A DNA stretch of 64,000 nucleotides from a virus: the IMG/VR virus record IMGVR_UViG_3300042878_001497, positions 64,001-128,000 of that record. The stretch is one strand, 5' to 3'. Below are positions 8,099 to 27,790 of this stretch, one piece after another; the stretch's first letter is position 1; each line of letters starts with the position of its first letter. The position numbers and the translations under genes were made by a program. Below the pieces are notes generated by a model, which saw only the letters and a list, made by a program, of their open reading frames with translations, was not told the DNA's origin and made no database searches.

Positions 8099-8563
8099 AT
8101 GTCAAGATTAAATGTAGAGGAACTAGTTGGCGGTCTATTAGAGGCCGCCATGGTTTCTCAAGGAATAAGTGAAAGACAGCATATTAATGCTCTCCGGAAC
8201 TATTTCAATGAAGACGGTACACCCAAAACCACCACCTTTACTGTAGGTGAGAAGGAATTGGTTGTACCTCTTTATATTTTAGCAGACCACTCATCTATTG
8301 GATTAGAAGAATTAGATATTGAGTTCTCTTGTAGGCTTATATTTGGTGATGAAGAAAGAGAGGTTTCCAATCTTAAAAAGTCTCTACTAGGGTTATTTAA
8401 GAAAAAAGGATACGAGCACAATATCAAAGGTATTGAAGTTGACTCTGGGTTTAATCCAAATGAAACGGGGGTAGCTAAAATAAAGGTTAAGTTCAAGGCC
8501 GATGAAAAGCCCGAAGCGGTTAGTAGATTGGTTGACGAGTACATAAAATTGCTAGCTAGCTAA
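8099..8563 (+). CDS. DUF2589-like protein (short partner form)
   Basis: VEELVGGLLEAA...VPLYILADHSSIGLEELDIEF...KPEAVSRLVDEY. Confidence 0.7.
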   Translation: MSRLNVEELVGGLLEAAMVSQGISERQHINALRNYFNEDGTPKTTTFTVGEKELVVPLYILADHSSIGLEELDIEFSCRLIFGDEEREVSNLKKSLLGLFKKKGYEHNIKGIEVDSGFNPNETGVAKIKVKFKADEKPEAVSRLVDEYIKLLAS

Positions 8564-12429: not shown

Positions 12430-12485
12430 TAAAATTTCTGAGTAAATGTTTGGAGCCCCGAAAGGGGCTTCTTATATTTATTACT

Positions 12486-14051
12486 ATGAAAAAGTTGTAC
12501 GTTGTTTTAGCGTTGTTGATGAGCTTTGTCTCAACAGCATCGCACTTAGCGGGTGGTGATATACAATACCGCTACATTGGAGATTCTACCGGAATCGCCC
12601 GTCATTATAAAATCATTCTGAGAGTCTATAGAGATGTTACCGGTATAGCAATGCCCACTACTGAGACAGTAACAATATCCTCAGGATGTTATTCTAACAC
12701 CAACGTTACTGTCAACCTAACAGCCGGAAGCGGGGTTGTATCCCCAACCCTATTTGATTGCGTAAACCCGGGACCTGGTGTGAAGACTCTGGAAGTTTAC
12801 CGGTACACCGGGTATGTAGTACTGCCGGGCAACTGCGGTGACTTTGTATTCTGGTATTCAAATTGCTGCCGTCCTCCTGGAGTAACTAATATCTCAAACT
12901 CAAATGGAACTGGAACCGACGGCTTCTACTTTGATGCTCTACTCAATAACCTTAATGGACAGAACTCATCTCCGATCTTTGTATCGGAGCCTGTTCGGGC
13001 ATTCTGTGTAGCTAATCCTTTCAACTGGAAGCAAAGCTCGGTCGAGTACGATGGAGACTCGGTGGCATACTCTCTGATCAATTGCCGGGAAGGAGCTTAC
13101 CCAAACCAGACTAACATTCCGTTTGACTTTGGATTCAATAAGAATCAACCTGTATCCTCAACCTACTTCAATATCAATCCTCAGACCGGGCAGATCTCTT
13201 TCTATCCTACAACTCAGGAGGTTGATGCACTGTCGGTATTGATTGAAGAATACAGGTATGATTCGCTTTGGGGAGTATGGACTAAGGTAGGTTCAGCCTC
13301 AAGAGATATGATGATATCAATTGCATATAATTGCAATGCAGTAGCGATGCAAGGCGTAAAATACGACCCTACTCAATACCCGGTTGATACAATTACAGGA
13401 CTAAAATATAAAGAAGTAGCATGCGGGGATACAGCCTTTGGACTTAAGTTTCACATTGCCTTAGATGGGTATTCAATTAACGATGTTGATTTTAGAATGA
13501 CCCGGACACAGACCAGCCAACCTGTTGCAATCAAAAAAATCTGGTCTAATGTCGATGTCAATTACGAGACCGACTCAGTACGTATTGTAATGCTCATGCC
13601 CTTTAGTTACGCAGGAGAGTACTACCTCTACTCTAAGAAAGGAAACGATGGAAATACTTTAATGAATAAGTGCGGTATTGAGATGGACGAGTTTGATACA
13701 ATCCTAATCAAGGTAGGACCTTGTCCACCTCCACCACCTCCAGACCCTATCGGTCCAGTTGACGATATTAGGAACGGAGAAGAACCTATTGTTATCCCTA
13801 CGCAACCTATTCTTATCCCGAACGTAGTAACTCCGAACGGAGATAACAAAAACGATCTGTTTGTAATTAAGAACCTAAGCAATCACAGTCCTGCCAGTAT
13901 AAGTATTATGAATAGATGGGGGCAGATAGTCTACACCAATCCAGATTATAAGAATGATTGGGATGGAGGAAATGTAGCAGATGGAGTTTATTTTGGAGTA
14001 TTAGACACCCCAGATCAGTCTTACAGCTTTACAGTTACAGTCCTAAGATAA
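12486..14051 (+). CDS. Secreted protein with T9SS type B (gliding-motility-associated) C-terminal domain
   Basis: Signal peptide, SHLAGGDIQY N-terminus, NCCRP, poly-Pro linker, IPNVVTPNGDNKND...NRWG...WDG...DGVYF. Confidence 0.88.
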   Translation: MKKLYVVLALLMSFVSTASHLAGGDIQYRYIGDSTGIARHYKIILRVYRDVTGIAMPTTETVTISSGCYSNTNVTVNLTAGSGVVSPTLFDCVNPGPGVKTLEVYRYTGYVVLPGNCGDFVFWYSNCCRPPGVTNISNSNGTGTDGFYFDALLNNLNGQNSSPIFVSEPVRAFCVANPFNWKQSSVEYDGDSVAYSLINCREGAYPNQTNIPFDFGFNKNQPVSSTYFNINPQTGQISFYPTTQEVDALSVLIEEYRYDSLWGVWTKVGSASRDMMISIAYNCNAVAMQGVKYDPTQYPVDTITGLKYKEVACGDTAFGLKFHIALDGYSINDVDFRMTRTQTSQPVAIKKIWSNVDVNYETDSVRIVMLMPFSYAGEYYLYSKKGNDGNTLMNKCGIEMDEFDTILIKVGPCPPPPPPDPIGPVDDIRNGEEPIVIPTQPILIPNVVTPNGDNKNDLFVIKNLSNHSPASISIMNRWGQIVYTNPDYKNDWDGGNVADGVYFGVLDTPDQSYSFTVTVLR

Positions 14052-15663: not shown

Positions 15664-17454
15664 ATGGCTATATTTTTTCCTGACATTCTAGAAAATAACA
15701 ACACTAACTACCCGTTAGTTGATGCTACTTCTTTAAAAGGAACTGCATACCCTCTAGCTTCTATTAACAATACTGGAAGTATACCTTCCGATAAGAGGAA
15801 TGTGGGTACGATAGTATTTGATTCTGGATCCGGTAAGTTTTACGGGTTTAAAGGAAGCAGTGTATCTAACTGGAATACTGGTTCTAACTGGATAGAGTTT
15901 GGAAGTGGAAGCGGTGGCGGCACTACTGTAAATCATTTATTTGATAGATGTATTGTTAACGGCTTTACGTACGATGGATACAACGCAGGTATTCTTAATC
16001 TCCAATTTGTTCCTACAGGCAGTACTTTAAATGGCCTGTTCGGTGAAAATCTAGCCTACAAAGTTGGAGATAAAATGATAGTCTACGTAGATGATAAAAA
16101 CTATATTAAGGGTACAGTTAACCAAGTTCCAGGAGGCTTTGGAGTAGGTTCAATTAACGTATTGGTTAACGCAGTTATTGGAACTACTGCGTCTGATGAC
16201 TACTGTATAACATTAGATTTAACTAGAGATTCCTACGTTTATGCTACCCAAACAGGTTCATTCCTATACAGCGGTTCTTACAACAGTACAACTTCCGCAT
16301 TAACATTACATAGTAGTACCAATACCTACAACCTAGACCTATCCGGACTTGCCGGAGGTGGTGGTGGTGGTTTCGCTATCACAGCATCTAATGAAGGTAC
16401 TGTGTTAACTGAGAATGCAAGAACCTTTGATTTCGTAGGTAATGCTGTTACTGCTACTAACGTAGGGTCAGCCGTAACTGTTACAATCAATACAGGATCT
16501 ACATCAGCAACAGACATTACAGCTCTTAACAACTTTACAGGCTCAGCTCAAACAAGCATTACCGGATTAAATACTTTCTCAGGCTCAGCTCAAACAAGCA
16601 TTACCGGATTAAATATTTTCTCAGGCTCAGCTCAAATAAGTATTAATGCATTAAATAGCTTCTCAGGCTCAGCCAACACTAGACTTGGTAGCTTAGAAGC
16701 TGCTACAGGTTCTTACGTTACAAATGCTAGGACAGGTTCATTCTACTACTCGTCTTCAATAAGCAGCAACGTCATTACTTTCAACCAAGGAGACGGAACT
16801 ACAGAAAGTATTACTCTAGTATCTGTACCTAGTGCTTCGTTTGCTCCTAATTTATATAATTCAGACGGTACTTTAACAGCAGCAAGAGAAGTTAACCTTA
16901 GTACTAATGCTCTAAAATTTAATAATACTAACGCTTTCTTTACTGTTAGTGGATCTGATAGAGTAACTTTTAATAACCTCAGTGAAGCTAATTATGGGTA
17001 TGTTGCAGGGTATGACTTAACCGGTATTTCAGGCACACAAGGTCTATTAGGTTACGTAACTGCTTCAAAACTTACAGTAGCTAGTGCTTCACATGCTCCT
17101 AACCTCTACAATTCAAACGGAACATTAACAGGAGATAGAGTTATCACACTCGGAGCTAATAATGAGCTTAGAATACAGCCTGGAACAGGTGCAAGTGAGT
17201 TTAGAATCTCAGACGGTCCTTCAGGTGGACCATTTATCTACGAAGTAGTTGTTAACGGAGCTGGATCGCTTAGAGTTAATAGCCCGGATAGTGCTAGCTT
17301 TGCAACTGATATATTCATAACCTTAGGAAAGGTACTTACACTTCAGCCAACTTCTGTACTTCCGATAGGAGCACCTGTAGGCTCATTTGCAGTATCCAGC
17401 AGTGTTCCTCCTAGACCTTATATGTGGGATGGAACTACTTGGTATGCTCTTTAA
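15664..17454 (+). CDS. Putative tail fibre or virion protein with internal repeats
   Basis: S/T/G rich, poly-Gly hinges, 14-aa repeats, two NLYNSxGTLT repeats, C-terminal YMWDGTTWYAL. Confidence 0.65.
   Translation: MAIFFPDILENNNTNYPLVDATSLKGTAYPLASINNTGSIPSDKRNVGTIVFDSGSGKFYGFKGSSVSNWNTGSNWIEFGSGSGGGTTVNHLFDRCIVNGFTYDGYNAGILNLQFVPTGSTLNGLFGENLAYKVGDKMIVYVDDKNYIKGTVNQVPGGFGVGSINVLVNAVIGTTASDDYCITLDLTRDSYVYATQTGSFLYSGSYNSTTSALTLHSSTNTYNLDLSGLAGGGGGGFAITASNEGTVLTENARTFDFVGNAVTATNVGSAVTVTINTGSTSATDITALNNFTGSAQTSITGLNTFSGSAQTSITGLNIFSGSAQISINALNSFSGSANTRLGSLEAATGSYVTNARTGSFYYSSSISSNVITFNQGDGTTESITLVSVPSASFAPNLYNSDGTLTAAREVNLSTNALKFNNTNAFFTVSGSDRVTFNNLSEANYGYVAGYDLTGISGTQGLLGYVTASKLTVASASHAPNLYNSNGTLTGDRVITLGANNELRIQPGTGASEFRISDGPSGGPFIYEVVVNGAGSLRVNSPDSASFATDIFITLGKVLTLQPTSVLPIGAPVGSFAVSSSVPPRPYMWDGTTWYAL
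16525..16692 (+). repeat. 42-bp in-frame tandem repeat, about 4 copies
   Basis: CAGGCTCAGC at 16538, 16580, 16622 and 16664 (LNTFSGSAQTSITG unit). Confidence 0.9.
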
Positions 17455-18156: not shown

Positions 18157-18183
18157 GGAAAGGGACTTCTGGTCCCTCTTCCT
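18157..18183 (+). terminator. Hairpin, possible terminator
   Basis: AGGAAAGGGAC-TTCTG-GTCCCTCTTCCT. Confidence 0.5.
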
Positions 18184-18251
18184 GTTTATATTTATAATGG
18201 AATTGTTGTAGGTAATTGTTTTTGGAATTTAAACATAACTTACGACCCTCT

Positions 18252-20186
18252 ATGAAAAAAATCTTTGTAGTACTCGCTGCAATTTTAGGATTAACAGCTC
18301 AAGCACAGAATGGTGCTAATGAGATCCTACCAGCTCCTAACTCATCTACTCCTTACATTCTAGTAGATACTTTGTTTACTCTGGCTAATCACCCGGCCAC
18401 CTACACCGATATCTACGTACACTTTGCTAACCCAACTGCAACACCAGTTAAAGCTGTCCAGTTTAGATTGTTTTACGACAATACTAAATTCTCTGGAGCT
18501 ACCATGTTCTGGGGTCCAACAGCACAGTCGGTATCAGATAAGTACGGATCTTACTTCGATGTAAATGCTAGCGGGTATATCAACGTTGTAGCAACTTACA
18601 CCGGTACCAATACTTCCTATGACTGGAATGATGGTGCGATGTTTAAGTTAAGACTTAATCACGGATCTAACTACAAAGGAGTTACTAACTCAATGGCCAT
18701 CACAGGAGCCAGCTCCTACACCAACCTTGCAACAGTTGGTAGCGGTACCGACGTTACTCTAACCTTATTCAACTACGGAGGTGCATTCCAAATGACTCCG
18801 ATGACTTTCCCAGTCAGAGCTAAGAACGCAGACGGATCACCAGCTCAAGGAGTTTGGTTCTCAGCTGCAAAGAGACTCAAGTCAACTCCTCTTGCAACTT
18901 GGCAGCCAATCTCTTCTGATTCAACTAATGCAGCAGGTCTAGTAGAGTTTACTCACCCTCTTGATACAAACTACTGGCATCTTAAGATCGCTGCTCAGAC
19001 TGACTCAATGTCTGACGGTGGTGCAATCTCAATCACAGACGCCTATAAATTAGCCAACCACGTTACCGGCCAAGATACTTTAGCAGGTATAGAGTGGTAC
19101 GAAGGTGATATCAACCAATCACAGACAGTAACTATCTCTGACGGCTTTGCCGTATTCAATAGATTAGCTCTTCAGTCAACTACCTGGAGTGGATTATTTA
19201 CAGGAGTAAACAACGTTGCAACATTATGGCCTGGTGAGTACGATCCTGCAACTCTAGCTACCGGAGCTCCTAACTGGGCTACTACTCCTAGAAGATACGC
19301 AATCGATACTATTGTTAATAGTCTAGACTCAATCAATCCTTACATCTACGTAGTTGGTGACGCTACAACAACCGGCTACAACAATCCAGCAACAATCCTT
19401 GCTAAGATCAACCCAGCCGGAGGCGGTATCACAGAATACGTTCTAGACCCAGCAGTCTATATGTCAAACAAGCCTGACACAGTTCAGTTTAGATTCCCTA
19501 AGCTAGTACTTACTGCAGACAACTTCGTTGACGTTCCAGTTACTATGTACACATTCGGTAACAAGATTGGAGCAGCTCAGATGGGCTTTGAATACGACAC
19601 CAACATCTTTGAGTTCATCTCAATCGAAGCAGGACCAGTAGCAGCTAAATGGACCAGTCTTATTAGTGTAGAGAAAGGCAGAGTGTTCTGGGCCGGTCAC
19701 GAAGATAAGATGAACCCTGCAGTGCTAGAAGCAATGAGCAATGCATTTACATTCCGCTTTAGAGTTAAATCAATCCTAGGATGGACTTCAGCTCCTCTAA
19801 GAATCTTCGACAAAGCAGCTGGTAACGAAAAAGCAGATGACCTATCAGTTAAGCCTTCTCTTAACGATGGTTCGATCATCAACGGAAGAGCTACTCTAGA
19901 TCCTATTACAACGGAGAAGATCTACGGCTTCCACGTATACCCTAACCCAGTATCGGATATGACCGGTGGATGGGCTATAGCAGAATTCTACACAGAAGAT
20001 AAGCAGCCTCTAACTATGGTGATTGCAAACATGCAAGGTCAAATCCTAAAGGCTGAAAAAATTAATCAAACAGATCTAGGCTTCCAATACAAAGGAATCT
20101 ACCTGGGTGATTTACCAAAAGGTACTTACTTCGTAAGACTGGTTATGAACGACAGAGATAAAGTTTACAAATTAATTAAATTCTAA
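18252..20186 (+). CDS. Secreted cohesin / beta-sandwich / dockerin-like / cohesin protein with T9SS type A CTD
   Basis: Signal peptide; cohesin-like VKAVQFRLFYDNTKF and IGAAQMGFEYDTNIFEF; dockerin-like AISITDA..GDINQSQTVTISD; CTD VYPNPV..LPKGTYFVRL..KLIKF. Confidence 0.8.
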   Translation: MKKIFVVLAAILGLTAQAQNGANEILPAPNSSTPYILVDTLFTLANHPATYTDIYVHFANPTATPVKAVQFRLFYDNTKFSGATMFWGPTAQSVSDKYGSYFDVNASGYINVVATYTGTNTSYDWNDGAMFKLRLNHGSNYKGVTNSMAITGASSYTNLATVGSGTDVTLTLFNYGGAFQMTPMTFPVRAKNADGSPAQGVWFSAAKRLKSTPLATWQPISSDSTNAAGLVEFTHPLDTNYWHLKIAAQTDSMSDGGAISITDAYKLANHVTGQDTLAGIEWYEGDINQSQTVTISDGFAVFNRLALQSTTWSGLFTGVNNVATLWPGEYDPATLATGAPNWATTPRRYAIDTIVNSLDSINPYIYVVGDATTTGYNNPATILAKINPAGGGITEYVLDPAVYMSNKPDTVQFRFPKLVLTADNFVDVPVTMYTFGNKIGAAQMGFEYDTNIFEFISIEAGPVAAKWTSLISVEKGRVFWAGHEDKMNPAVLEAMSNAFTFRFRVKSILGWTSAPLRIFDKAAGNEKADDLSVKPSLNDGSIINGRATLDPITTEKIYGFHVYPNPVSDMTGGWAIAEFYTEDKQPLTMVIANMQGQILKAEKINQTDLGFQYKGIYLGDLPKGTYFVRLVMNDRDKVYKLIKF

Positions 20187-20191
20187 AAGTC

Positions 20192-20572
20192 ATGAGTGAA
20201 GAACAAGAAGGCGGAATGTCTAGCGTAAAGAAGACAGTCCTAGGAGTATTAGGTACAGCTGTAACAGGTATTGGTATCTGGGCTACTACTCACATTAATA
20301 GCTTGTTAGGTATTGAGGATGAAGAGGAGACTAAAACTGAGCAGGTAGCTCCTGCCCCGGCTCCAGTTATCGTTAACCTTGAGAACAACAATACCCAGCA
20401 GCAGAACAACTCCGGTGGTGGTACTACTATCATCAAAGAGACTGTTCGTGAAGTACCAGCTCAAGCAGCAGCACCAGCTCCAGCAGCTCCAGCTGAAGAG
20501 AAGAAAGAAACTCCAGCCGAAAGAATGGCTCGCCTTAAAAAGCAGAGAGAAGACCAGAACGCCGGTAAGTAA
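20192..20572 (+). CDS. Membrane-anchored low-complexity protein
   Basis: N-terminal TM, then PAPAP/NNNTQQQNN linker. Confidence 0.75.
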   Translation: MSEEQEGGMSSVKKTVLGVLGTAVTGIGIWATTHINSLLGIEDEEETKTEQVAPAPAPVIVNLENNNTQQQNNSGGGTTIIKETVREVPAQAAAPAPAAPAEEKKETPAERMARLKKQREDQNAGK

Positions 20573-21312
20573 TGAGAACTAGAAGAGACGAGATTATGGA
20601 AAAGATTTTCGCTCCTATAGGGGTACTTCTGGTTGTAGGTGGAATGTTAGTTGTAGGTACGTTAGCGACCTCATGTAAATCTTCTGTAGGTGTACAACAG
20701 TATACAGCCGAGTTTGAGAAAGCAGAAGCTCTAAATACTCTTCCAGCCTTTACCGGTCAGAAGCAGGTAGTGCAGCTATCTAAGCTTAATGTCAATAAAG
20801 AGCTTTGGGATATGTTCCCTGAGTTAAGAGACAAGAGAGTGGGTATGGGTGTATCGAATAGAATCATTGAGAACTTCGAACAGACCGGTCGCTTTACTTA
20901 CGCTGAAGAGAAAGAAGCAATTCAGAATCAGATGCTTGATGCTTGGGAGACTGAACTAAACGGACTTTCAAATGGCAAGACTCAACTTACAATGGAAGGC
21001 ATTGCCGTTCCTAAGTATGTTGTGTATGCTGAGATCTATGACTTCTCTGTATCATATGCTGAGACTTACGATAAAGGTAAAACAAATAAGACCAATACTA
21101 CTATCATCGGCATTCAGATCCGAATGGTAAATGTGGATAACGGACAGTATATTGTGGCTTCAGGTCAAGGAACTTCAACCCAAGTTGGTGAGGGCTTCTT
21201 TAAGAATCCTCAGATGGGGTTTGATGGTTCAACAGTTGGCGTTGCTACACAACGTGCGTTAGAGGTTGCGACTGTAAACCTCGTCAAGCGCATGGAGCAG
21301 TATGGATGGTAA
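20572..21312 (+). CDS. CsgG/HfaB-like lipoprotein
   Basis: Lipobox LATS-C; GMGVSNRIIENFEQTGRFT; YVVYAEIYDF; IGIQIRMVNVDNGQYI..G.G. Confidence 0.75.
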   Translation: MRTRRDEIMEKIFAPIGVLLVVGGMLVVGTLATSCKSSVGVQQYTAEFEKAEALNTLPAFTGQKQVVQLSKLNVNKELWDMFPELRDKRVGMGVSNRIIENFEQTGRFTYAEEKEAIQNQMLDAWETELNGLSNGKTQLTMEGIAVPKYVVYAEIYDFSVSYAETYDKGKTNKTNTTIIGIQIRMVNVDNGQYIVASGQGTSTQVGEGFFKNPQMGFDGSTVGVATQRALEVATVNLVKRMEQYGW

Positions 21313-22849
21313 ATGGAAAATAGCGTTAATATTTCTAATTGCATGGTTCAAAGGGTATAGTCAGTATATCTATACCTACACCGATCCTTGCACAGGAATA
21401 CTTAACTCTGTTACCATTACCCAGCCATCAGGCTCTGTAACGCTCTTTTATGCCGGACAATACAATACTTTTACAGCAGCCCAGCTACAGGCCGGAGCCT
21501 TCGAGCTTTGGGTACAAAGTGTTAATGCAAGTGTGCCTGCAGGAAGTAACCCCTGCGCTGGAGGCGGGGGTACTATCACAACAGGATCAAATGCAGCTAT
21601 TGGCACTAATACGGTCAATAACGTATCAGGCATAGTTAGTATCGCCGCCAGTCTAGGCGGGAACATAGGATCATCCGCTATTCCGGGCGGAGGTGTAGCA
21701 GGTGGTGGAACTTCAAATACAAATAATAATGACAATGGTTCGAATTCTTCTGGTAGCAGCTCTAGTAGTTCTGGGAATGGCGGTAGTAGTTCTGGGTCTA
21801 GCTCCGGTAGCTCCGGAACAGGCTCTACAGGCAGTGGAGGGAGCACTGGTGGGAGTGGCGGTAGCGGTAGTACTGGTGGCGGTGGCTCTGGCTCGGGTTC
21901 TGGCGGAGGTTCCGGAGGAGGTTCAGGAACTGGAGGCTCTGGTTCTTCAGGCGGCTCAGGCTCAGGCGGTTCGGGATCGGGTGGTTCGGGATCAGGTCAA
22001 CCTTCCTCCGGTCAGGGTGAAGGCGGAGGAGGATCTATTCCATCTTCAGGAGGAGGAGGCTCGACTGAGGGCGGTGGTACGGAATCAGGAGCAGTCGGTG
22101 GGCAAGAAAACACAACCTCAGCATCAGGTGGGGAGTCTGAAAGCTCGTCAAATGGCAATGGTGGTGGTAAAAGCGGCGGCGGAGGTCAAAAGCAAAAAAG
22201 CAGGCAAGAGAAAGTAGGTAGAGGAGCTCTCATAGGCTCCGGTGACTTTGTCGCCATCAGAAACTCCGGCAACATCAGGGACACGGGTCAGGATAATTTT
22301 AGGTTCAACTCCTCCATCACCCATGTCAATACCAAGCAAAACTTTATCAAAGGAGTTAATCTGAATTACACTACCGGTGAGAATGTTCTGAATACTACTC
22401 TATATGGTTCTTATAAAGCTAAAGGGTTTATGGGGGTATTCTCCAATTCGGTGATGACTAACTTTAAGACCGATTGGTTTAATACAACCACAGCTCTAGC
22501 AGCTCAAAAAGCAGGACCTGCTACAATGATGTTGGGTACTAATTTTACTGCCGGGCAGCTGGGGAAGAGCTGGTTCCGGAACTGGTCCATAGTCGGAGGA
22601 GGATTTACAAACTTTAAAGGAGGAAAATCAATAGGTGGAAACGTAATGCTGTTGGGCGTATATTCACCTTATATCTTCTACTACCAAGGTCAGTGGTACA
22701 GTTCAGGAATGCTACTAGTACCTCTAGCTAACATAGATTTTAAATTAACTGATAAGTTCAAATGGAGTATTTCATTCTCAGGAGCTTATCAATGGAATGC
22801 AGAAATACTTAATTACCAGATATCAACAGGAACAAAAATACTGTTATGA
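21302..22849 (+). CDS. Secreted protein: small N-domain, long Gly/Ser linker, C-terminal beta-barrel-like domain
   Basis: Signal peptide; DPC..NPC cysteine pair; ~170-aa G/S-rich linker; alternating beta pattern in the C-terminal ~200 aa. Confidence 0.7.
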   Translation: MDGKWKIALIFLIAWFKGYSQYIYTYTDPCTGILNSVTITQPSGSVTLFYAGQYNTFTAAQLQAGAFELWVQSVNASVPAGSNPCAGGGGTITTGSNAAIGTNTVNNVSGIVSIAASLGGNIGSSAIPGGGVAGGGTSNTNNNDNGSNSSGSSSSSSGNGGSSSGSSSGSSGTGSTGSGGSTGGSGGSGSTGGGGSGSGSGGGSGGGSGTGGSGSSGGSGSGGSGSGGSGSGQPSSGQGEGGGGSIPSSGGGGSTEGGGTESGAVGGQENTTSASGGESESSSNGNGGGKSGGGGQKQKSRQEKVGRGALIGSGDFVAIRNSGNIRDTGQDNFRFNSSITHVNTKQNFIKGVNLNYTTGENVLNTTLYGSYKAKGFMGVFSNSVMTNFKTDWFNTTTALAAQKAGPATMMLGTNFTAGQLGKSWFRNWSIVGGGFTNFKGGKSIGGNVMLLGVYSPYIFYYQGQWYSSGMLLVPLANIDFKLTDKFKWSISFSGAYQWNAEILNYQISTGTKILL

Positions 22850-23664
22850 AAAAATTTTTACTACTCATCTTAATACCTTTCAATGTCTTTGCCCAGACTA
22901 CCCAAGAGGGCTCTGAATCAGTCTCGGAGTGGACTTCAATTCAGTACGTTGATCTTGATAACGACATCATTAGTAGTTCAAGCCTATCCTTCGGGTTCCT
23001 AGGTCAGTTTAGTATCTTCAGCTATAATCTCGCCTACCAGCTTAAGAATAAGAATCACACCAACGGGTTCTTCCTTTCAAGGACTCCTTCATTTAATTTT
23101 ACTAAGTTCGGCTACAACTACATCAGAGAGAAAGAATTCCCTAACGGCCTGCTTAGAACCAACACATACAGCCTCACGATAGGAGGGAGTGATGTAGGAG
23201 TGAATACAATTTCAGTTACTCCTTTCCTTAATCAGACTTACCAGAAGAGTAGCTACAAGCTAGGGTACACTTTGTTTGTGAAGGATAATAGCTGGGACGG
23301 GTTTCAATTCCTTGATACTTACATCCCGGCAGGCTTCCAGACTAAGTTCAGTGTCATGCTCTTAGGAATGAAAGAGTTTCAAGCAGGAAGATGGGTGGCA
23401 AGACCTGAGATCTTTATGTTGTCATCTCTTAGAACCCACTTTAAACATTTAGAGGACTCGGAAGATTATTTAGATATCTGGTTTTGGAATAGAACTAACT
23501 TGACTACTTACTTCGGTACTACTATTCAATACAATGTTACTGATGTATTTGCATTTGCTACGAAGTTTAGAACTAGTTATACTTATGATATATCTGATAT
23601 AGAGAATGGATACAGCAAAACCACGCCTTATATCGTTTCAATAGGCGCTAATTATGACTTCTAA
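22846..23664 (+). CDS. Putative outer-membrane beta-barrel protein
   Basis: Signal peptide, aromatic-rich alternating strands, C-terminal beta-signal YIVSIGANYDF. Confidence 0.7.
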   Translation: MKKFLLLILIPFNVFAQTTQEGSESVSEWTSIQYVDLDNDIISSSSLSFGFLGQFSIFSYNLAYQLKNKNHTNGFFLSRTPSFNFTKFGYNYIREKEFPNGLLRTNTYSLTIGGSDVGVNTISVTPFLNQTYQKSSYKLGYTLFVKDNSWDGFQFLDTYIPAGFQTKFSVMLLGMKEFQAGRWVARPEIFMLSSLRTHFKHLEDSEDYLDIWFWNRTNLTTYFGTTIQYNVTDVFAFATKFRTSYTYDISDIENGYSKTTPYIVSIGANYDF

Positions 23665-24649
23665 GGTTCTTATCACTTCAGCTTTTGTATTCCTGGTACA
23701 GTTACTAGGTCTCTCTCAGACCTTTACTCACTCGGGTGCTATAAGGACCGAAGGCAATATAGGAGTTCCAGGAGTAACAGTCAACCTTTATAAAAGAGTC
23801 ACCCCAGTCATTACAGGTTTTACAAATCAGCAGAACTACAACGGTCATTCCTACTACAGGTCAACAGGTTCAGCATTTTGGTCAGCAGCCAAAGCTGCCT
23901 GTGACAACATGGGTGGACATCTAGTAACAGTCACCACGCAGGCTGAAAATAACTTTATATTTGGGTTATGGCCATCGGGTTGGATAGGATTAACCGATGA
24001 AGTAAATGAAGGAGTATGGAGATGGGTTACCGGTGAAGCTTACTCTTACACTTCTTGGAACCCTGGAGAGCCAAACAACGCAGGTAATGAAGACTACGTT
24101 CAGTTTGTCGGTAATGGAAAATGGAATGACCTACCTAACAATGTAAACTTGCCCTATGTTTTAGAGTTTGAATACATAGTTACTACTACTGCCTGGACTA
24201 TTCAAGCCACATCAGTCACTAATTTAAATGGGCAGTATTCTTTCTCCCAACCCACCAATCCTTCCGTTGAGTGGTATATCGAAGTAGTAGTTCCTACTGT
24301 AACTTCTAATCTTACTTCTGCAGATTTTGAAGGAGTGGGTGATGTTGTAACTCAGAAAGTTACCTTAAGACCCTTCCACTATCACAAGTACGATTTAAAC
24401 CTTGAAGGAAAGATTACTACTGCCGATATTTGCATTATAGCTGATAGAATTAACGGAGCACCTTTTACTAAAAGCACATTGCTTTTTACAAATGCTCAAT
24501 GGACTAGCCTTAATAGCGGTTCTTCAAACCTAATGGGTTCAATACCTGGCTTGCAATCTAACTTTACCTTTACTCCTACTTCAGGAGGTATAAGCAACTT
24601 CTATTTATTATCGCCTGGATACTCTAACCAAGCCACGTTACAATACTAA
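23654..24649 (+). CDS. Secreted C-type lectin plus dockerin-like protein
   Basis: Signal peptide; GHSYY, C...GGHL, WIGL, WNPGEPNN, WND; YDLNLEGKITTAD. Confidence 0.85.
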   Translation: MTSKVLITSAFVFLVQLLGLSQTFTHSGAIRTEGNIGVPGVTVNLYKRVTPVITGFTNQQNYNGHSYYRSTGSAFWSAAKAACDNMGGHLVTVTTQAENNFIFGLWPSGWIGLTDEVNEGVWRWVTGEAYSYTSWNPGEPNNAGNEDYVQFVGNGKWNDLPNNVNLPYVLEFEYIVTTTAWTIQATSVTNLNGQYSFSQPTNPSVEWYIEVVVPTVTSNLTSADFEGVGDVVTQKVTLRPFHYHKYDLNLEGKITTADICIIADRINGAPFTKSTLLFTNAQWTSLNSGSSNLMGSIPGLQSNFTFTPTSGGISNFYLLSPGYSNQATLQY

Positions 24650-24658
24650 GTCAATATC

Positions 24659-25081
24659 ATGATCAATCCAATCCTTACTATGTGCTTTTACGTCGCTACG
24701 GTGACTTCAAATGCCAACCTTGCCGGTATCGACAATCAAAAATTTACTTTCGGACTAAGACAAATCACCGAGGACGTTCTCAATGAAAGAGGAAATCCTT
24801 TATGCCCGGAAAGCGATCTTAATGCAAGTCCGATCTACGTTACAGTAACTGAAATTAAAGCTCCTACTCAAGGAATTAGAATCGGACCTTTTGAATTCAA
24901 ACAAAAGAAAACAATCGTTGAGGTAGATATTGCAATCGGTTCATCAGTCTATCACGGAGTAGGAAAAGCTAATACAAACGTTGCTGCTACATTAATGCAG
25001 CTGCAAGATGAAAATCTTCCTTTCGAAAGAACAGAATTTTCAGTAGCTGTTAAAAAAGCTATTGTGGATGCCCTAGACTAG
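24659..25081 (+). CDS. Short CsgG-fold-like protein
   Basis: FGLRQITEDVL...YHGVG...FERTEFSVAVKKAIVDAL parallels the CsgG-like ORF 20572. Confidence 0.5.
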   Translation: MINPILTMCFYVATVTSNANLAGIDNQKFTFGLRQITEDVLNERGNPLCPESDLNASPIYVTVTEIKAPTQGIRIGPFEFKQKKTIVEVDIAIGSSVYHGVGKANTNVAATLMQLQDENLPFERTEFSVAVKKAIVDALD

Positions 25082-25158
25082 GTCTATTTATACCAAAGGG
25101 TTGCCGTCAATTGTTTTCTTAATCAGTTCTATAAGTTAAACTTTTTAAATAACAATTT

Positions 25159-25401
25159 ATGGCATTTTGGGACATTTTTAAAGATAAAAATGACTTCAAC
25201 GAGAAAACAATCGTTGGCTTTTTATCATTCTCGGTGATGGCTATCTTCGCTGGAGCTGACATCGTTACAGGTATTTTAGGTAACCAACTGGTAATCAGTG
25301 ATACTATCTTCAATTCATTTGTAATGATCACTCTAGGTGCATTTGGTATCGCCGAAGCAGGAAAGATCTTCGGAGGAAAGAAAGAAGAAAATAACGATTA
25401 A
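25159..25401 (+). CDS. Small two-TM protein, holin-like
   Basis: Two TM segments with a charged C-terminus; lies upstream of the endolysin. Confidence 0.6.
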   Translation: MAFWDIFKDKNDFNEKTIVGFLSFSVMAIFAGADIVTGILGNQLVISDTIFNSFVMITLGAFGIAEAGKIFGGKKEENND

Positions 25402-25411
25402 AAATTAAACT

Positions 25412-26023
25412 ATGAGCTTAAAAAGTTTACAAGAGAAGATGGGCATAGCCGCTGATGGCGCTTTTGGTCCCGGAACAATGAAGAAGGCAATGGAGTTTTA
25501 TAAGTTGACTCCAGTTAGAGCTGCACACTTCTTCGCTCAAACAGCCCACGAAACAGGAGGCTTTAAAGCATTTTCAGAGAACCTAAACTACTCCGCCCAA
25601 GGCCTGCAAGGTATCTTCGGCAAGTACTTCCCCGGTAACCTCGAAGAGTCTTACGCCCGCCAGCCTGAAAAGATTGCAAACCGAGTCTACGCCGACAGGA
25701 TGGGCAACGGAGCCGAAGCATCAGGGGATGGATACAAGTTCAGAGGCAGAGGAGCTCTTCAGTTGACTGGTAAAGCCAACTACGAAGCATTTGCAAAGTA
25801 CTTAGGCAATGACGAGGTCTTGACTAACCCTGATACGGTTGCTACTAAATACGCTTTTGAATCAGCTATGTTTTTCTTTGAAAGAAATAAGCTATGGACT
25901 ATCTGTGATAAGGGCATCAACGATGCAGCTATCCTGGAACTGACCAAGCGCATCAACGGCGGTACTCACGGACTTGAAGACAGAAATGCCAAGACTAAGA
26001 AGTACTACGAATACGTGAAGTAA
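25412..26023 (+). CDS. Endolysin, glycoside hydrolase family 19, with short PG-binding N-terminus
   Basis: AHFFAQTAHETGGF, ENLNYS, FRGRGALQLTGKANY, TKRINGG; ADGAFGPGT. Confidence 0.93.
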   Translation: MSLKSLQEKMGIAADGAFGPGTMKKAMEFYKLTPVRAAHFFAQTAHETGGFKAFSENLNYSAQGLQGIFGKYFPGNLEESYARQPEKIANRVYADRMGNGAEASGDGYKFRGRGALQLTGKANYEAFAKYLGNDEVLTNPDTVATKYAFESAMFFFERNKLWTICDKGINDAAILELTKRINGGTHGLEDRNAKTKKYYEYVK

Positions 26024-26439
26024 TGAAACCAACAGCCATATTTTTGTCTATCGCCACCACACTTTCATTCGGATGCTCTTATTTTCTAGAGCTGACAATG
26101 GGTAACTTTGAGCAGTACCTTGCTCTAATTGCTGTGGTGTTTGTAGATGGATTTTTTGGCATCATTGCTGGAATCAAGAGAGAAGGTTTTAAGACCTTTA
26201 AAGCTGTTAGAGTACTACAAAGAACAATAGTATGGGTAATGTTCCTAACTGTTATCCTGATGGTCGAAAGAGGCTTTGCAGGAACTAGTTGGTTATCTGA
26301 AACCATTATCGTACCTTTCATTCTACTTCAGCTTATAAGTGCTCTTAAGAACGCTTCGATGTCTGGCTTTATCCATATAGGGGACTTAAATAAGATCTTA
26401 GATCGAATAGATCCTCACAAAGGAGAAAGAAAAGAATAA
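26023..26439 (+). CDS. Phage holin (holin_4-like)
   Basis: Multiple TM segments; VDGFFGIIAGIKRE...ISALKNA; coupled to the endolysin. Confidence 0.7.
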   Translation: MKPTAIFLSIATTLSFGCSYFLELTMGNFEQYLALIAVVFVDGFFGIIAGIKREGFKTFKAVRVLQRTIVWVMFLTVILMVERGFAGTSWLSETIIVPFILLQLISALKNASMSGFIHIGDLNKILDRIDPHKGERKE

Positions 26440-26490: not shown

Positions 26491-26850
26491 ATGAGCGAAG
26501 ATAAAAATATATACGAAAGAGGCGCAGTCGAGATCCTCAAGGAAGAATACCCGACTATCTACTACGGCTACATTCAGATTCAAGCAGAGCAGTTAGAGCT
26601 CTTTGCAAAGAAGCATTTAGATTACGGAATGCATAACATCACTGCAGGTACTCAACTTGCTAACGAAGATGAGATTGGCTTTGCATTGACCGGACTCTGG
26701 TACCGAATCTCAGATAAGGTTAACCGCTGGAAGAATCTGCTGATTAATCGACGTAGTGTACAGAATGAATCCTTAATGGATACTTATCAAGACCTGGCTA
26801 ACTACGGCATCATTGCTCAGTTAGTGGCTCGAGGTATGTGGAAGAAGTAA
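26491..26850 (+). CDS. DUF1599 / nucleotide-modification-associated domain 1 protein
   Basis: KKHLDYG..NI...RISDKVNR..NL...ESLMDTYQDLANY. Confidence 0.8.
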   Translation: MSEDKNIYERGAVEILKEEYPTIYYGYIQIQAEQLELFAKKHLDYGMHNITAGTQLANEDEIGFALTGLWYRISDKVNRWKNLLINRRSVQNESLMDTYQDLANYGIIAQLVARGMWKK

Positions 26851-26851
26851 A

Positions 26852-27790
26852 ATGGCTAAGAAGAAACTCCCTAAGGAGGTAAGCCTGGTTCGTGAATACA
26901 AAGTAGAGAAGTACGACACAAAGGAGAACAAAAACATCTCCTACAGTCAATACTCAATCTACAGTACTTGTCCACATCAGTGGTATCTTTCGTATCCGAA
27001 AAAGCTAGCACCTTATACTCCTAGCATTCATACAGTCTTTGGAACTGCTCTACACGAGACAGCTCAGAACTGGTTGGATGTACTTTACAACCAATCGGTA
27101 AAGGCTGCTACTGAAATCGATCTATCAGAGTATCTGATTGACCGAATGAAGAAGACTTACAAGAAAGAAAGATTTAATAACGGACACAAAGACTTTACAA
27201 CTCCTCAGGAGCTTCAAGAGTTTCACAACGACGGAGTAGCCATAATGGACTACCTAAAAAAGAAACGTTCGATATACTTTAGCACAAAAGGAACTTACCT
27301 GGTAGGAGTAGAGGTGCCGCTGGTACAGCAGCTTAAGACTGGATTGTACTTCAAAGCCTATCTTGATCTGGTCTTCTACAATGAAGTTACAGGAAAGTAT
27401 TTGATCTTAGATATCAAGACTTCGACTAAGGGTTGGAGTGATTACGAAAAGAAAAGCGATACTAAGATCTCTCAGGTACTATTCTACAAAGAGTTCTTTG
27501 CCAAGCAATTCAATACCGATGTAGAGAACATCGATGTAGAATTCTTTATCGTACGTAGAAAGATTTACGAAGGAGGAGAGTTTGTACCCAAAAGAGTACA
27601 GCAATTCAGACCTGCTTCAGGAAAGATTAAGCGAGGTCAGGCGATGTCCGGCTTAAATAGATTTGTAGAAGAAGCATTTTCGGATACAGGAGAATATCTT
27701 GAGAAAGACTATAATAAGAATGCATCTAAAAACAACTGTAGATTCTGTCCGTTTAACAAAAGCCCTCTCTGTAGCGCAGCTATTTTATAA
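26852..27790 (+). CDS. PD-(D/E)XK exonuclease (RecB/Cas4-like)
   Basis: SYSQYS..CP, FGTALHE, YLDL..LDIKTS, Q..FY, CRFCPF..C. Confidence 0.88.
   Translation: MAKKKLPKEVSLVREYKVEKYDTKENKNISYSQYSIYSTCPHQWYLSYPKKLAPYTPSIHTVFGTALHETAQNWLDVLYNQSVKAATEIDLSEYLIDRMKKTYKKERFNNGHKDFTTPQELQEFHNDGVAIMDYLKKKRSIYFSTKGTYLVGVEVPLVQQLKTGLYFKAYLDLVFYNEVTGKYLILDIKTSTKGWSDYEKKSDTKISQVLFYKEFFAKQFNTDVENIDVEFFIVRRKIYEGGEFVPKRVQQFRPASGKIKRGQAMSGLNRFVEEAFSDTGEYLEKDYNKNASKNNCRFCPFNKSPLCSAAIL

What the first reader, a model, noticed from the sequence alone, without database searches (positions are those of the whole stretch)
18189..25081. Phage-encoded surface-assembly operon: T9SS scaffoldin (cohesin/dockerin), CsgG-like pore, beta-barrels and lectin-dockerin
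Seen: seven tightly coupled genes, most with a signal peptide, lipobox or TM anchor. They encode a protein with two cohesin-like domains, a dockerin-like domain and a T9SS type A CTD (18252); an anchored linker protein; a CsgG-like lipoprotein; a Gly/Ser-tethered barrel; a second barrel ending in a beta-signal; a C-type lectin with a dockerin-like C-terminus; and a short CsgG-like protein. Known: cohesin-dockerin pairs assemble surface complexes, CsgG forms outer-membrane secretion channels, and CTDs route cargo through the Bacteroidota T9SS. Exported proteins of this kind are not expected to be virion parts. Inference: the phage builds a cellulosome-like adhesin or coat on the infected cell, with lectin docked on cohesins and a self-polymerisable scaffold. 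Possible roles are superinfection exclusion, aggregation with new hosts, or grazing avoidance. The operon sits behind a late-type TATTTATA motif and directly before the lysis genes.
Basis: partly seen in the sequence, partly recalled or inferred. Interest (0 to 1): 0.88.

Follow-up and report, generated by a model that had tools for sequence, protein, structure and literature searches.

The report
Phage envelope module with swappable lectins
A 173-kb phage of Bacteroidota carries a strictly conserved block of seven exported proteins, next to its lysis genes, that most likely assembles in the outer envelope of the infected cell and presents exchangeable sugar-binding heads; what it does for the phage has never been tested.

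Summary
Seven tightly packed + strand genes (18252-25081) all carry export signals. Tools support two cohesins and a T9SS type A tail (g1), a CsgG-family lipoprotein (g3; fold Z 12.9 to CsgG), an autotransporter-like barrel behind a Gly/Ser tether (g4), a C-type lectin (g6) and a short CsgG-like protein (g7). The dockerin call stays sub-threshold, and the g5 barrel could not be folded.

New here:
- The core g1-g2-g3-g4...g7 is present in every evaluable locus of 121 fetched phage contigs in two clades. One clade includes the cultured Flavobacterium phage immuto.
- A slot next to the core swaps C-type lectin, PA14/GLEYA and ConA-like heads.
- g3-g4-g7 mirrors an uncharacterised bacterial operon (CsgG-like A, barrel, CsgG-like B) in FCB-group genomes.
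- g3 lacks CsgG's second membrane hairpin, so a PelC/LptE-like ring or plug under a barrel fits better than a curli-type pore.
- The module lies close to the endolysin gene in most loci that hold one.

The cellulosome-like reading is plausible but unproven. This scan has noted the same module on other DNA (75 notes, at least 56 genomes). I found no paper describing it. Partial precedents are phage T9SS cargo and phage CsgG/CsgF clusters.

The parts
18161..18177 (+). terminator-like hairpin that closes the upstream unit
   Evidence: 7-bp stem, 4 G-C pairs; sequence read.
18189..18196 (+). TATTTATA motif, a candidate promoter element 56 nt upstream of g1
   Evidence: 14 copies against 5.4 +/- 2.3 expected, 12 of them on the + strand and mostly intergenic. 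Timing is untested.
18252..20186 (+). g1, the scaffold (644 aa): signal peptide, cohesin 1, a beta-sandwich plus dockerin-like module shared with the lectin cargo (about aa 190-380), cohesin 2 (about aa 411-560) and a T9SS type A CTD (aa 562-643)
   Evidence: The shared module comes (g6 165-325 against immuto im14 194-358, E=8e-5). g1 is split into two genes in phage immuto (im14 plus im15).
20192..20572 (+). g2 (126 aa): bitopic inner-membrane protein with KK before the TM segment (N-in inferred), a variable Pro/Ala/Asn-rich spacer and a conserved C-terminal EEKKETPAERMARLK motif
   Evidence: No family hit. Present in 109/109 evaluable loci together with g1.
20572..21312 (+). g3 (246 aa): CsgG-family outer-membrane lipoprotein. 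No acidic surface-export signal follows the Cys, so it probably faces the periplasm
   Evidence: The AF2 model has pLDDT 80.7. Fold Z: CsgG 12.9, PelC 10.7, LptE 9.1.
21302..22849 (+). g4 (515 aa): signal peptide, a roughly 80-aa two-Cys N-domain, a Gly/Ser tether of variable length (near 0 to about 220 aa among relatives) and a C-terminal roughly 215-aa barrel-like domain
   Evidence: alignment; the Atlas model of residues 300-515 matches autotransporter barrels at TM 0.81 and the KdgM porin at 0.74; 217 close relatives, none annotated.
22846..23664 (+). g5 (272 aa): accessory exported protein, possibly an outer-membrane barrel (signal peptide, 19% aromatic residues, ends ..SIGANYDF)
   Evidence: Found only in a few loci. 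Fold not tested. No homology to g4 or to the bacterial barrel.
23654..24649 (+). g6 (331 aa): variable-slot cargo. Signal peptide, C-type lectin (EPN/WND) set in a beta-sandwich stalk, and a C-terminal module with one EF-hand/dockerin-like loop (DLNLEGKITTAD)
   Evidence: It is 53% identical to the immuto lectin im13.
24659..25081 (+). g7 (140 aa): short CsgG-like protein, corresponding to the C-terminal two thirds of the bacterial 'B' paralogue; two invariant Cys
   Evidence: hhalign gives 96.2% (E=2e-9) to bacterial B and 90.4% (E=1.4e-6) to the g3 family. Present with g4 in 100/100 evaluable loci.
25085..25092 (+). second TATTTATA copy, 4 nt after the g7 stop, at the head of the lysis genes
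25159..26439 (+). linked lysis cassette: 2-TM protein (25159-25401), GH19-type endolysin (25412-26023) and holin (26023-26439)
   Evidence: Of 121 related loci, 71 hold an endolysin gene. In the 67 of those where the distance could be measured, it lies within about 2.5 kb of the module edge in 65, on either side.

Best explanation
This is a conserved phage 'envelope module'. Its products leave the cytoplasm of the infected Bacteroidota cell and assemble in or on the outer membrane.

Shown:
- Every protein carries an export signal.
- g1 carries two cohesins and a type A T9SS sorting tail.
- g3 and g7 are CsgG-family proteins.
- g4 ends in a barrel-like domain preceded by a Gly/Ser tether of very variable length.
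- The neighbouring slot swaps sugar-binding heads (C-type lectin, PA14/GLEYA, ConA-like) on a common stalk. That stalk also occurs inside g1.

Inferred assembly:
- g3, with g7, forms a ring or plug on the periplasmic face of the outer membrane under the g4 barrel. This is the arrangement of PelC on PelB, or LptE in LptD, and not a curli-type pore.
- g4 holds its small N-domain out on the flexible tether.
- g2 ties the complex to the inner membrane.
- g1 is exported by the host T9SS.
- The lectin heads, which lack a T9SS tail, join g1 through the shared stalk/dockerin-like module and the cohesins. They might ride out with g1, because the T9SS moves folded proteins.

Inferred role: around the time of lysis the infected cell, or its debris, becomes coated with strain-matched lectins. 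My preferred purpose is sticking to glycans of neighbouring host cells ('sibling capture', flocculin-like). Masking of receptor glycans is the second choice.
For: - Export signals and gene packing.
- Domains.
- g3: 26 of 61 homologues hit Pfam CsgG (best 1.9e-25), and the family profile hits only CsgG in the PDB (E=6e-4). The AF2 model has pLDDT 80.7. Foldseek's top hits are CsgG then PelC. VIA Z is 12.9 for CsgG, 10.7 for PelC and 9.1 for LptE.
- g7: hhalign 96.2% and 90.4%.
- g4 barrel: Atlas TM 0.81 to autotransporter barrels. Tether length varies from about 0 to about 220 aa.
- Conservation: 41 plus 117 matching phage contigs. The core is present in 109/109 and 100/100 evaluable loci, and in the cultured phage immuto at 26-53% identity.
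- Variable slot: PA14 in 8, Lectin_C in 7, GLEYA in 5 and Laminin_G_3 in 2 of 24 cargo proteins.
- Bacterial counterpart: an A-barrel-B operon in FCB-group genomes, once next to T9SS cargo.
- Linkage to the endolysin gene.
Against: - No experiment and no expression data. Both tools that could have given transcript or context data were closed.
- The dockerin is below Pfam's cut-off (14.2 against 22.9 bits). Its profile finds a dockerin in the PDB only at E=1.5. A strict Ca-loop motif is present in only 7/24 cargo and 3/16 scaffold proteins.
- Cohesin-dockerin pairing and g3-g4 contact were not modelled.
- The g4 barrel rests on a predicted model of moderate confidence. No sequence homology to the bacterial barrel was detected (hhalign 9.3%).
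- g7's export signal is atypical.
- The host is unknown for this contig. That it has a T9SS is inferred from the immuto host, a Flavobacterium.
- The biological role is pure inference.
Confidence: 0.55

Rival explanations
1. Receptor masking or superinfection exclusion. The same assembly forms, but the lectins bind the host's own surface glycans. This blocks later phages and keeps progeny from adsorbing to lysed-cell debris, as the phage T5 lipoprotein Llp does for FhuA.
For: - The swappable glycan-binding heads suggest an arms race over strain-specific glycans.
- The module is linked to the lysis genes.
- The fold class of g3 includes the TraT surface-exclusion lipoprotein, weakly (Z 6.9).
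- Flavobacterium phages are known to use T9SS-dependent surface structures as receptors (general knowledge).
Against: - No PADLOC or PHROG exclusion family matches.
- A seven-gene apparatus is elaborate for masking.
- Nothing shows what the lectins bind.
Confidence: 0.2
2. Type VIII-like secretion conduit. g3, with g7, forms a CsgG-type outer-membrane pore, perhaps together with g4, that exports the lectin or PA14 cargo encoded beside it.
For: - CsgG is the best structural and sequence match of g3.
- The cargo genes lack a T9SS tail and, in this clade, sit between g4 and g7.
- Pelagimyophages carry CsgG/CsgF clusters (PMC7029224).
Against: - g3 has a single long hairpin with a polar tip (YDKGKTNKTN) and only a 14-residue loop where CsgG has its second membrane hairpin.
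- No CsgE, CsgF or CsgA-like partner was detected.
- CsgG passes unfolded chains through a narrow constriction, whereas the lectin and PA14 domains are folded modules.
- Relatives of the domain are fused to caspases and kinases, so it serves as a general periplasmic module.
Confidence: 0.12
3. Lysis accessory. The module weakens or breaches the outer membrane at the end of infection. In this role it would be spanin-like, with g2 as the inner-membrane partner and g3 as the outer-membrane lipoprotein.
For: - In 65 of the 67 loci where the distance could be measured, the module edge lies within about 2.5 kb of the endolysin gene, on either side.
- g2 and g3 are adjacent, overlapping genes for an inner-membrane protein and an outer-membrane lipoprotein.
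- No canonical spanin is evident next to the holin and endolysin.
Against: - At 246 aa, g3 is a globular CsgG-fold protein with bacterial homologues in non-phage operons. Known o-spanins are short.
- The periplasmic part of g2 is low-complexity, not a coiled coil.
- Cohesins, a T9SS tail and swappable lectins have no place in membrane fusion.
Confidence: 0.08
4. Virion parts (tail fibre or decoration proteins), or a recently captured host operon with no phage role.
For: - Lectin and Ig-like folds are common in phage receptor-binding proteins.
- A repeat-rich 596-aa protein without a signal peptide lies just upstream (15664-17454).
Against: - Sec signal peptides, a lipobox, a T9SS tail and a barrel are incompatible with cytoplasmic virion assembly.
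- There are no PHROG structural hits.
- The core is conserved in 121 phage loci at 24-92% identity, and close copies were seen in 1 of 401 Bacteroidota genomes.
Confidence: 0.04

Closest known systems
CsgG of the curli (type VIII) secretion system, and the CsgG/CsgF clusters reported in pelagimyophages (PMC7029224)
   Same: g3 is a lipoprotein of the CsgG family by profile and by fold (Z 12.9), and it is phage-encoded. The function of the pelagimyophage cluster is also unknown, and an aggregation role ('sibling capture') was proposed there.
   Different: - No second membrane hairpin, and a polar hairpin tip.
- No CsgE, CsgF or CsgA.
- Its partners here are a separate barrel protein, a second short CsgG-like protein, a T9SS cohesin scaffold and lectins.
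- The hosts are Bacteroidota, not SAR11.
PelBC exopolysaccharide exporter (PelC lipoprotein ring on the PelB barrel; PMC12141448), and LptE inside LptD
   Same: A CsgG/PelC/LptE-fold lipoprotein is encoded next to an outer-membrane barrel. PelC (Z 10.7) and LptE (Z 9.1) are the next-best fold matches after CsgG.
   Different: - No sequence homology to PelC, PelB or LptD was shown.
- No polysaccharide synthase lies in the block.
- The oligomer state was not modelled.
Cellulosome-type cohesin-dockerin assemblies
   Same: Two Pfam-level cohesins sit on one exported protein, and the partner proteins carry an EF-hand-like helix-loop-helix segment. The layout is a fixed scaffold with exchangeable heads.
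   Different: - The dockerins are sub-threshold, and many have a degenerate Ca loop.
- The heads are lectins, not enzymes.
- The scaffold is anchored or exported through a T9SS tail, not SLH or sortase.
- It is phage-encoded.
- Binding is untested.
Phage-encoded T9SS cargo ('Cryophage', PMC7468147)
   Same: A phage gene carries a type A T9SS sorting domain, the genes are variable and include a PA14 protein, and superinfection or competition roles were proposed.
   Different: There, single variable cargo genes (glycoside hydrolases, PA14) each carry their own tail. Here there is one tailed scaffold inside a fixed multi-gene module with CsgG-like and barrel parts, and the variable heads have no tail.
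Type Va autotransporters
   Same: g4 has an N-terminal domain, a long linker and a C-terminal barrel of about 215 aa. Its predicted model superposes on autotransporter barrels (TM 0.81).
   Different: - No Pfam Autotransporter hit.
- The linker is a Gly/Ser-rich disordered tether of variable length, not a helix plus a beta-helical passenger.
- The topology is untested.
Uncharacterised bacterial operon found here: CsgG-like A, roughly 410-aa barrel, CsgG-like B (FCB-group genomes, L044-L051)
   Same: - A is 35-44% identical to g3.
- B is homologous to g7 (hhalign 96%).
- The gene order is the same.
- The barrel protein likewise has an N-domain, a charged low-complexity linker and a C-terminal barrel.
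- In one case it lies next to T9SS type A cargo.
   Different: - No cohesin scaffold, g2 or lectin slot.
- Barrel homology to g4 is not significant (9.3%).
- The function is unknown too, so it explains ancestry and not mechanism.

Membership tests
CsgG family (PF03783) | Direct match of the protein to the family model above its cut-off | tested here: not met
   g3 has no Pfam or NCBIfam hit at E<=0.1.
CsgG family (PF03783) | Homology shown through intermediates or a profile | tested here: met
   26 of 61 phmmer relatives hit PF03783 (best 1.9e-25). The profile of A4 hits only CsgG chains in the PDB (E=6e-4). Bacterial A proteins that are 35-44% identical to g3 pass the cut-off.
CsgG family (PF03783) | CsgG-like fold | tested here: met
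   AF2 model pLDDT 80.7. Foldseek E=6.5e-8 and VIA Z 12.9 (166 residues, rmsd 4.2) to CsgG 4uv2.
CsgG family (PF03783) | N-terminal lipidation site | tested here: met
   Signal peptide ending ..LATSC; Cys35 is invariant in 19 homologues.
Curli-type CsgG pore (type VIII secretion) | Two membrane-spanning hairpins per subunit that build the 36-stranded barrel | tested here: inconclusive
   The monomer model shows one long hairpin (149-187) with a polar tip, and a 14-residue loop (207-220) where CsgG has TM2. This leans against a pore, but no oligomer was modelled.
Curli-type CsgG pore (type VIII secretion) | CsgE, CsgF and CsgA/B partners in the cluster | tested here: not met
   None of the seven proteins hits a curli family in Pfam or NCBIfam.
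T9SS type A cargo | C-terminal sorting domain above the curated cut-off | tested here: met
   TIGR04183 33.9 bits against 23, PF18962 28.8 against 27, and solved CTD 8glj_D at E=4.5e-4.
T9SS type A cargo | N-terminal Sec signal peptide | tested here: met
   MKKIFVVLAAILGLTAQAQ, read. No predictor was run.
T9SS type A cargo | Secretion depends on a host T9SS | not testable with these tools
   The host of this contig is unknown. The related phage immuto infects a Flavobacterium.
Cohesin (PF00963) | Match above the cut-off | tested here: met
   38.9 bits against 24.1, in two stretches. The immuto homologue is annotated as cohesin-domain protein.
Dockerin type I (PF00404) | Match above the cut-off | tested here: not met
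   g1 scores 14.2 bits against 22.9. Only 1 of 24 cargo proteins matches, at E=0.015.
Dockerin type I (PF00404) | Duplicated Ca-binding F-hand segments | tested here: inconclusive
   - One EF-hand-like loop (DLNLEGKITTAD) followed by a helix.
- The strict loop motif is present in 7/24 cargo and 3/16 scaffold proteins.
- The profile's only PDB hits are an EF-hand protein (E=1.2) and a dockerin, 4uyp_B (E=1.5).
Cohesin-dockerin assembly | Specific binding of the two modules | not testable with these tools
   No multimer prediction was available.
C-type lectin (PF00059) | Domain match plus the Ca/sugar-site motifs | tested here: met
   61 bits against 22.6; EPN at residue 139 and WND at 157. The canonical disulfide Cys are mostly absent.
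Type Va autotransporter | C-terminal 12-stranded barrel | tested here: inconclusive
   The Atlas model of residues 300-515 superposes on autotransporter barrels (TM 0.81) and on KdgM (0.74). There is no Pfam Autotransporter hit. Whole-protein model confidence is moderate (pLDDT 0.51).
Two-component spanin | Inner-membrane protein with a periplasmic coiled coil, plus a short proline-rich outer-membrane lipoprotein | tested here: not met
   The periplasmic part of g2 is low-complexity. g3 is a 246-aa globular CsgG-fold protein.

The most novel reading that the evidence does not exclude
A widespread group of large Bacteroidota phages builds a trans-envelope lectin-display machine in the infected cell. 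It consists of a CsgG/PelC-like ring and an autotransporter-like barrel as the anchor, and a cohesin scaffold exported by the hijacked T9SS. Tail-less, plug-in lectin heads hitch-hike on that scaffold. The lectins glue uninfected host cells, or receptor glycans, to the cell just before the burst.
Probability: 0.2. Interest if true: 0.9.

Novelty: new variant of a known kind. Interest (0 to 1): 0.7.

Why it matters
If the reading holds, lytic phages of an ecologically dominant aquatic phylum do more than copy themselves. They re-equip the surface of the dying cell with strain-matched sugar-binding proteins, using the host's own type IX secretion. That would add a new behaviour to phage ecology: host capture, or receptor masking, at burst.

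It would also give:
- the first cohesin-dockerin-type assembly outside polysaccharide degradation and in a virus;
- a natural example of cargo riding through the T9SS on a tagged partner;
- a first handle on an uncharacterised CsgG-like/barrel operon of FCB-group bacteria.

It is directly testable, because the cultured phage immuto and its Flavobacterium host carry the same module.

Tried and rejected
- PHROGs, NCBIfam and PADLOC gave nothing for g2, g3, g4, g5 and g7, apart from one weak PHROG hit for g7.
- The first AF2 run of g3 used a shallow alignment and was unusable (pLDDT 50). Shallow profiles also found nothing in the PDB.
- hhalign found no significant link between the g4 barrel, g5 and the bacterial barrel.
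- g5: no PDB hit and only 21 close relatives. A home-made beta-moment score did not discriminate.
- The search with the g4 C-terminus returned only unannotated close relatives.
- The genome search cannot draw relatives of a virus record.
- I therefore have no gene context for the distant representatives and no transcript evidence.
- I rejected the virion-part and recently-captured-host-operon readings, and downgraded the spanin and curli-pore readings. The reasons are given under the rival explanations.

Full report
**What is there.** The window is the middle of a 173,415-bp IMG/VR phage record, and every gene in view lies on the + strand. Between 18252 and 25081 lie seven ORFs joined by gaps or overlaps of +5, -1, -11, -4, -11 and +9 nt. 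I call them g1 to g7.
- g1, g4, g5 and g6 begin with typical Bacteroidota signal peptides.
- g3 has a signal peptide that ends in a lipobox cysteine. That cysteine is invariant in 19 homologues.
- g2 has one N-terminal membrane segment.
- g7 has only a short hydrophobic N-terminus plus two invariant cysteines.
- A terminator-like hairpin (18161-18177) and a TATTTATA motif (18189) precede g1. A second copy (25085) follows g7.
- The motif occurs 14 times against 5.4 +/- 2.3 expected, mostly intergenic and on the coding strand. It is a credible promoter element, but nothing shows that it is 'late'.
- Directly downstream come a 2-TM protein, a GH19-type endolysin (phrog_181, 1.4e-61) and a holin.

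**Domain checks.**
- g1 (644 aa) passes the Pfam Cohesin cut-off with two stretches (38.9 against 24.1 bits). It also passes both T9SS type A models (TIGR04183 33.9 against 23; PF18962 28.8 against 27). The family profile finds a solved T9SS sorting domain (8glj_D, E=4.5e-4).
- Its 'dockerin' scores only 14.2 bits against a cut-off of 22.9.
- g6 is a C-type lectin (61 bits) with EPN and WND motifs.
- The C-terminal 160 aa of g6 are homologous to the middle of the scaffold (g6 165-325 against immuto im14 194-358, E=8e-5). Scaffold and cargo therefore share a stalk module.
- That module contains one EF-hand-like loop (DLNLEGKITTAD) and a helix. Its profile finds only an EF-hand protein (E=1.2) and a cellulosomal dockerin (4uyp_B, E=1.5) in the PDB. 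The strict loop motif is present in 7 of 24 cargo and 3 of 16 scaffold proteins. 'Dockerin-like' therefore remains a lead and is not a result.

**g3 and g7.** g3 has no direct family hit. An exhaustive phmmer search found 193 representative relatives.
- Of 61 aligned relatives, 26 hit Pfam CsgG (best 1.9e-25) and 8 hit LpoB.
- The profile of that alignment hits only CsgG in the PDB (E=6e-4).
- The protein language-model search also pointed to CsgG (0.95).
- With the deep alignment, AlphaFold2 gave a confident model (pLDDT 80.7).
- Foldseek ranks CsgG first (E=6.5e-8), then PelC.
- VIA-align gives Z 12.9 for CsgG, 10.7 for PelC, 10.3 for CT253, 9.6 for FlgT, 9.1 for LptE and 6.9 for TraT.

The model has one long hairpin (149-187), whose tip is polar (YDKGKTNKTN). 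Only a 14-residue loop (207-220) sits where CsgG carries its second membrane hairpin. No CsgE, CsgF or CsgA-like protein is in the block. I therefore file g3 in the CsgG superfamily, but I do not accept 'pore' as shown. A periplasmic ring or plug under a separate barrel, as in PelC-PelB or LptE-LptD, fits the anatomy better.

g7 is homologous to the C-terminal two thirds of CsgG-like proteins: hhalign gives 96.2% (E=2e-9) to the bacterial 'B' paralogue and 90.4% to the g3 family.

**g4, g5 and g2.**
- g4 has a conserved two-Cys N-domain. Its Gly/Ser tether ranges from almost nothing to about 220 aa among relatives. Its C-terminal 215 aa are conserved.
- The Atlas model of residues 300-515 superposes on autotransporter barrels (TM 0.81) and on the KdgM porin (0.74). 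The variable tether length is what one expects of a stalk that must cross a surface glycan layer of variable thickness. That point is inference.
- g5 is confined to a few close relatives. It has a signal peptide and ends ..NYDF. I could not fold it, so its barrel status is open.
- g2 is a bitopic inner-membrane protein with a variable spacer and a conserved basic C-terminal motif.

**Conservation.** Searches for the g3 protein fetched 41 IMG/VR loci at 64-89% identity. The immuto homologue matched a second clade of 117 contigs, of which 80 were kept. Contigs reach 308 kb.
- In every locus with enough flank, scaffold plus g2 lie upstream of g3 (109/109), and barrel plus g7 lie downstream (100/100).
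- The cultured Flavobacterium phage vB_FspM_immuto has the whole set at 26-53% identity. There the scaffold is split into two genes and the lectin comes first.
- Next to the core is a variable slot with one to three signal-peptide genes. Their heads are PA14 (8 of 24), C-type lectin (7), GLEYA (5) or ConA-like (2), on the common stalk.
- Of the 121 loci, 71 hold an endolysin gene. In the 67 of those where the distance could be measured, it lies within about 2.5 kb of the module edge in 65, on either side.
- Close copies of g3 are rare in cells. Among 401 sampled Bacteroidota genomes only one had a strong match, and 26 had distant CsgG-like proteins.

**A bacterial counterpart.** In FCB-group metagenome-assembled genomes, a lipoprotein 35-44% identical to g3 ('A', which passes the Pfam CsgG cut-off) is followed by a barrel-type protein of about 410 aa. 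That protein has an N-domain, a charged low-complexity linker and a C-terminal ..RF. A second CsgG-like protein ('B') follows it. The genomes come from Cloacimonadota, KSB1, Bacteroidota, Rhodothermales, Ignavibacteriales and Chitinivibrionales.
- The phage order g3, g4, (cargo), g7 repeats this A-barrel-B order.
- In one Cloacimonadota contig the operon follows an 840-aa T9SS type A cargo protein.
- Sequence homology between the two barrels is not significant (9.3%, E=0.0035, collinear).
- This operon is uncharacterised as far as I could find, so it informs ancestry and not function.

**Interpretation.** The export signals, lipobox, T9SS tail and barrel rule out virion parts. The deep, strictly syntenic conservation in phages rules out a recent host capture. 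The best-supported reading is an envelope-located assembly with four parts:
- a fixed outer-membrane core (g3, g7, g4);
- an inner-membrane tie (g2);
- a T9SS-exported cohesin scaffold (g1);
- exchangeable lectin heads.

How the tail-less heads would reach the surface is unknown. Riding on g1 through the T9SS, which carries folded proteins, is an attractive but untested idea. As for purpose, PA14/GLEYA domains are the sugar-binding heads of yeast flocculins (general knowledge), and the lectin has the Man/GlcNAc/Fuc-type EPN motif. I therefore favour adhesion of the infected cell to glycans of neighbouring hosts, the 'sibling capture' idea raised for pelagimyophage curli genes (PMC7029224). Receptor masking or superinfection exclusion is the second choice. 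The linkage to the lysis genes fits action late in infection under either purpose. It also keeps a lysis-accessory role alive at low probability.

**Relation to what is known.** Phage-encoded T9SS cargo has been reported once, as single variable genes (PMC7468147). Phage CsgG/CsgF clusters have been reported in pelagimyophages with unknown function (PMC7029224). The PelBC structure shows a ring of a CsgG/PelC-fold lipoprotein on a barrel (PMC12141448). I found no paper describing this combined module. Within this scan the same module has been noted many times on other DNA (75 notes in at least 56 genomes), and the follow-up conclusions there are similar to mine. That is not independent evidence.

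**Limits.** There are no expression, localisation or binding data. Only two structure predictions were allowed, and both went to g3. The host of this particular contig is not known.

Noticed in passing
window 12450-14051 and 10879-12429: Two more exported phage proteins sit upstream. The 533-aa protein has a strong T9SS type B sorting domain (CHU_C 8.1e-19; TIGR04131 40.2 bits against a cut-off of 35). The 516-aa protein has only a sub-threshold type A tail (18.2 bits). The genome-wide scan finds just two T9SS tails over the cut-off, g1 and the 533-aa protein. No PorP/SprF-like partner was detected beside the type B protein.
   Followed up: partly
window, 14 sites (e.g. 3383, 17487, 18189, 25085, 27799, 43803, 55446, 59239): TATTTATA is enriched 2.6-fold. 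Twelve of the 14 copies are on the coding strand, mostly in gaps just upstream of genes and often extended to TATATATTTATAT. It is probably a phage promoter element whose timing class is unknown.
   Followed up: partly
L048 9382-11859; L050 3742-6276: The bacterial CsgG-like A/B operons neighbour a protein of about 830 aa with a transglutaminase-like core and, in L050, TPR repeats. The L050 protein has a far-sub-threshold similarity to the anti-phage protein ProA (59 bits against a cut-off of 1500). In L048 a CHASE2-adenylate/guanylate cyclase follows.
   Followed up: no
proteins P0039, P0083, P0100, P0143, P0071, P0087: Metagenomic relatives of g3 occur fused to caspase-like peptidases (Peptidase_C14) or to Ser/Thr protein kinases. 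The CsgG/LpoB-like domain is thus reused as a general periplasmic module.
   Followed up: no
L032 11868-12797: In one related phage the variable lectin slot holds an extra 309-aa ORF without a signal peptide. By eye its N-terminus resembles a TnpB/OrfB-type transposon protein, which would suggest a mobile-element insertion. No search was run on it.
   Followed up: no
window 15664-17454: A 596-aa protein without a signal peptide has repeated ..FSGSAQTSITGLN.. units and no family hit. It is possibly a tail fibre. It lies two small genes upstream of the module.
   Followed up: no
window 8099-8563; 26491-27790: A DUF2589 protein (3e-13) lies upstream. A DUF1599 'nucleotide modification associated' protein plus a PD-(D/E)XK nuclease lie right after the holin.
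   Followed up: no
L001 19887-20114 (phage immuto): Immuto annotates a small 'YcfL protein' about 3.5 kb downstream of its module. In E. coli, ycfL lies next to lpoB (ycfM), another CsgG/LpoB-fold lipoprotein gene (from memory).
   Followed up: no
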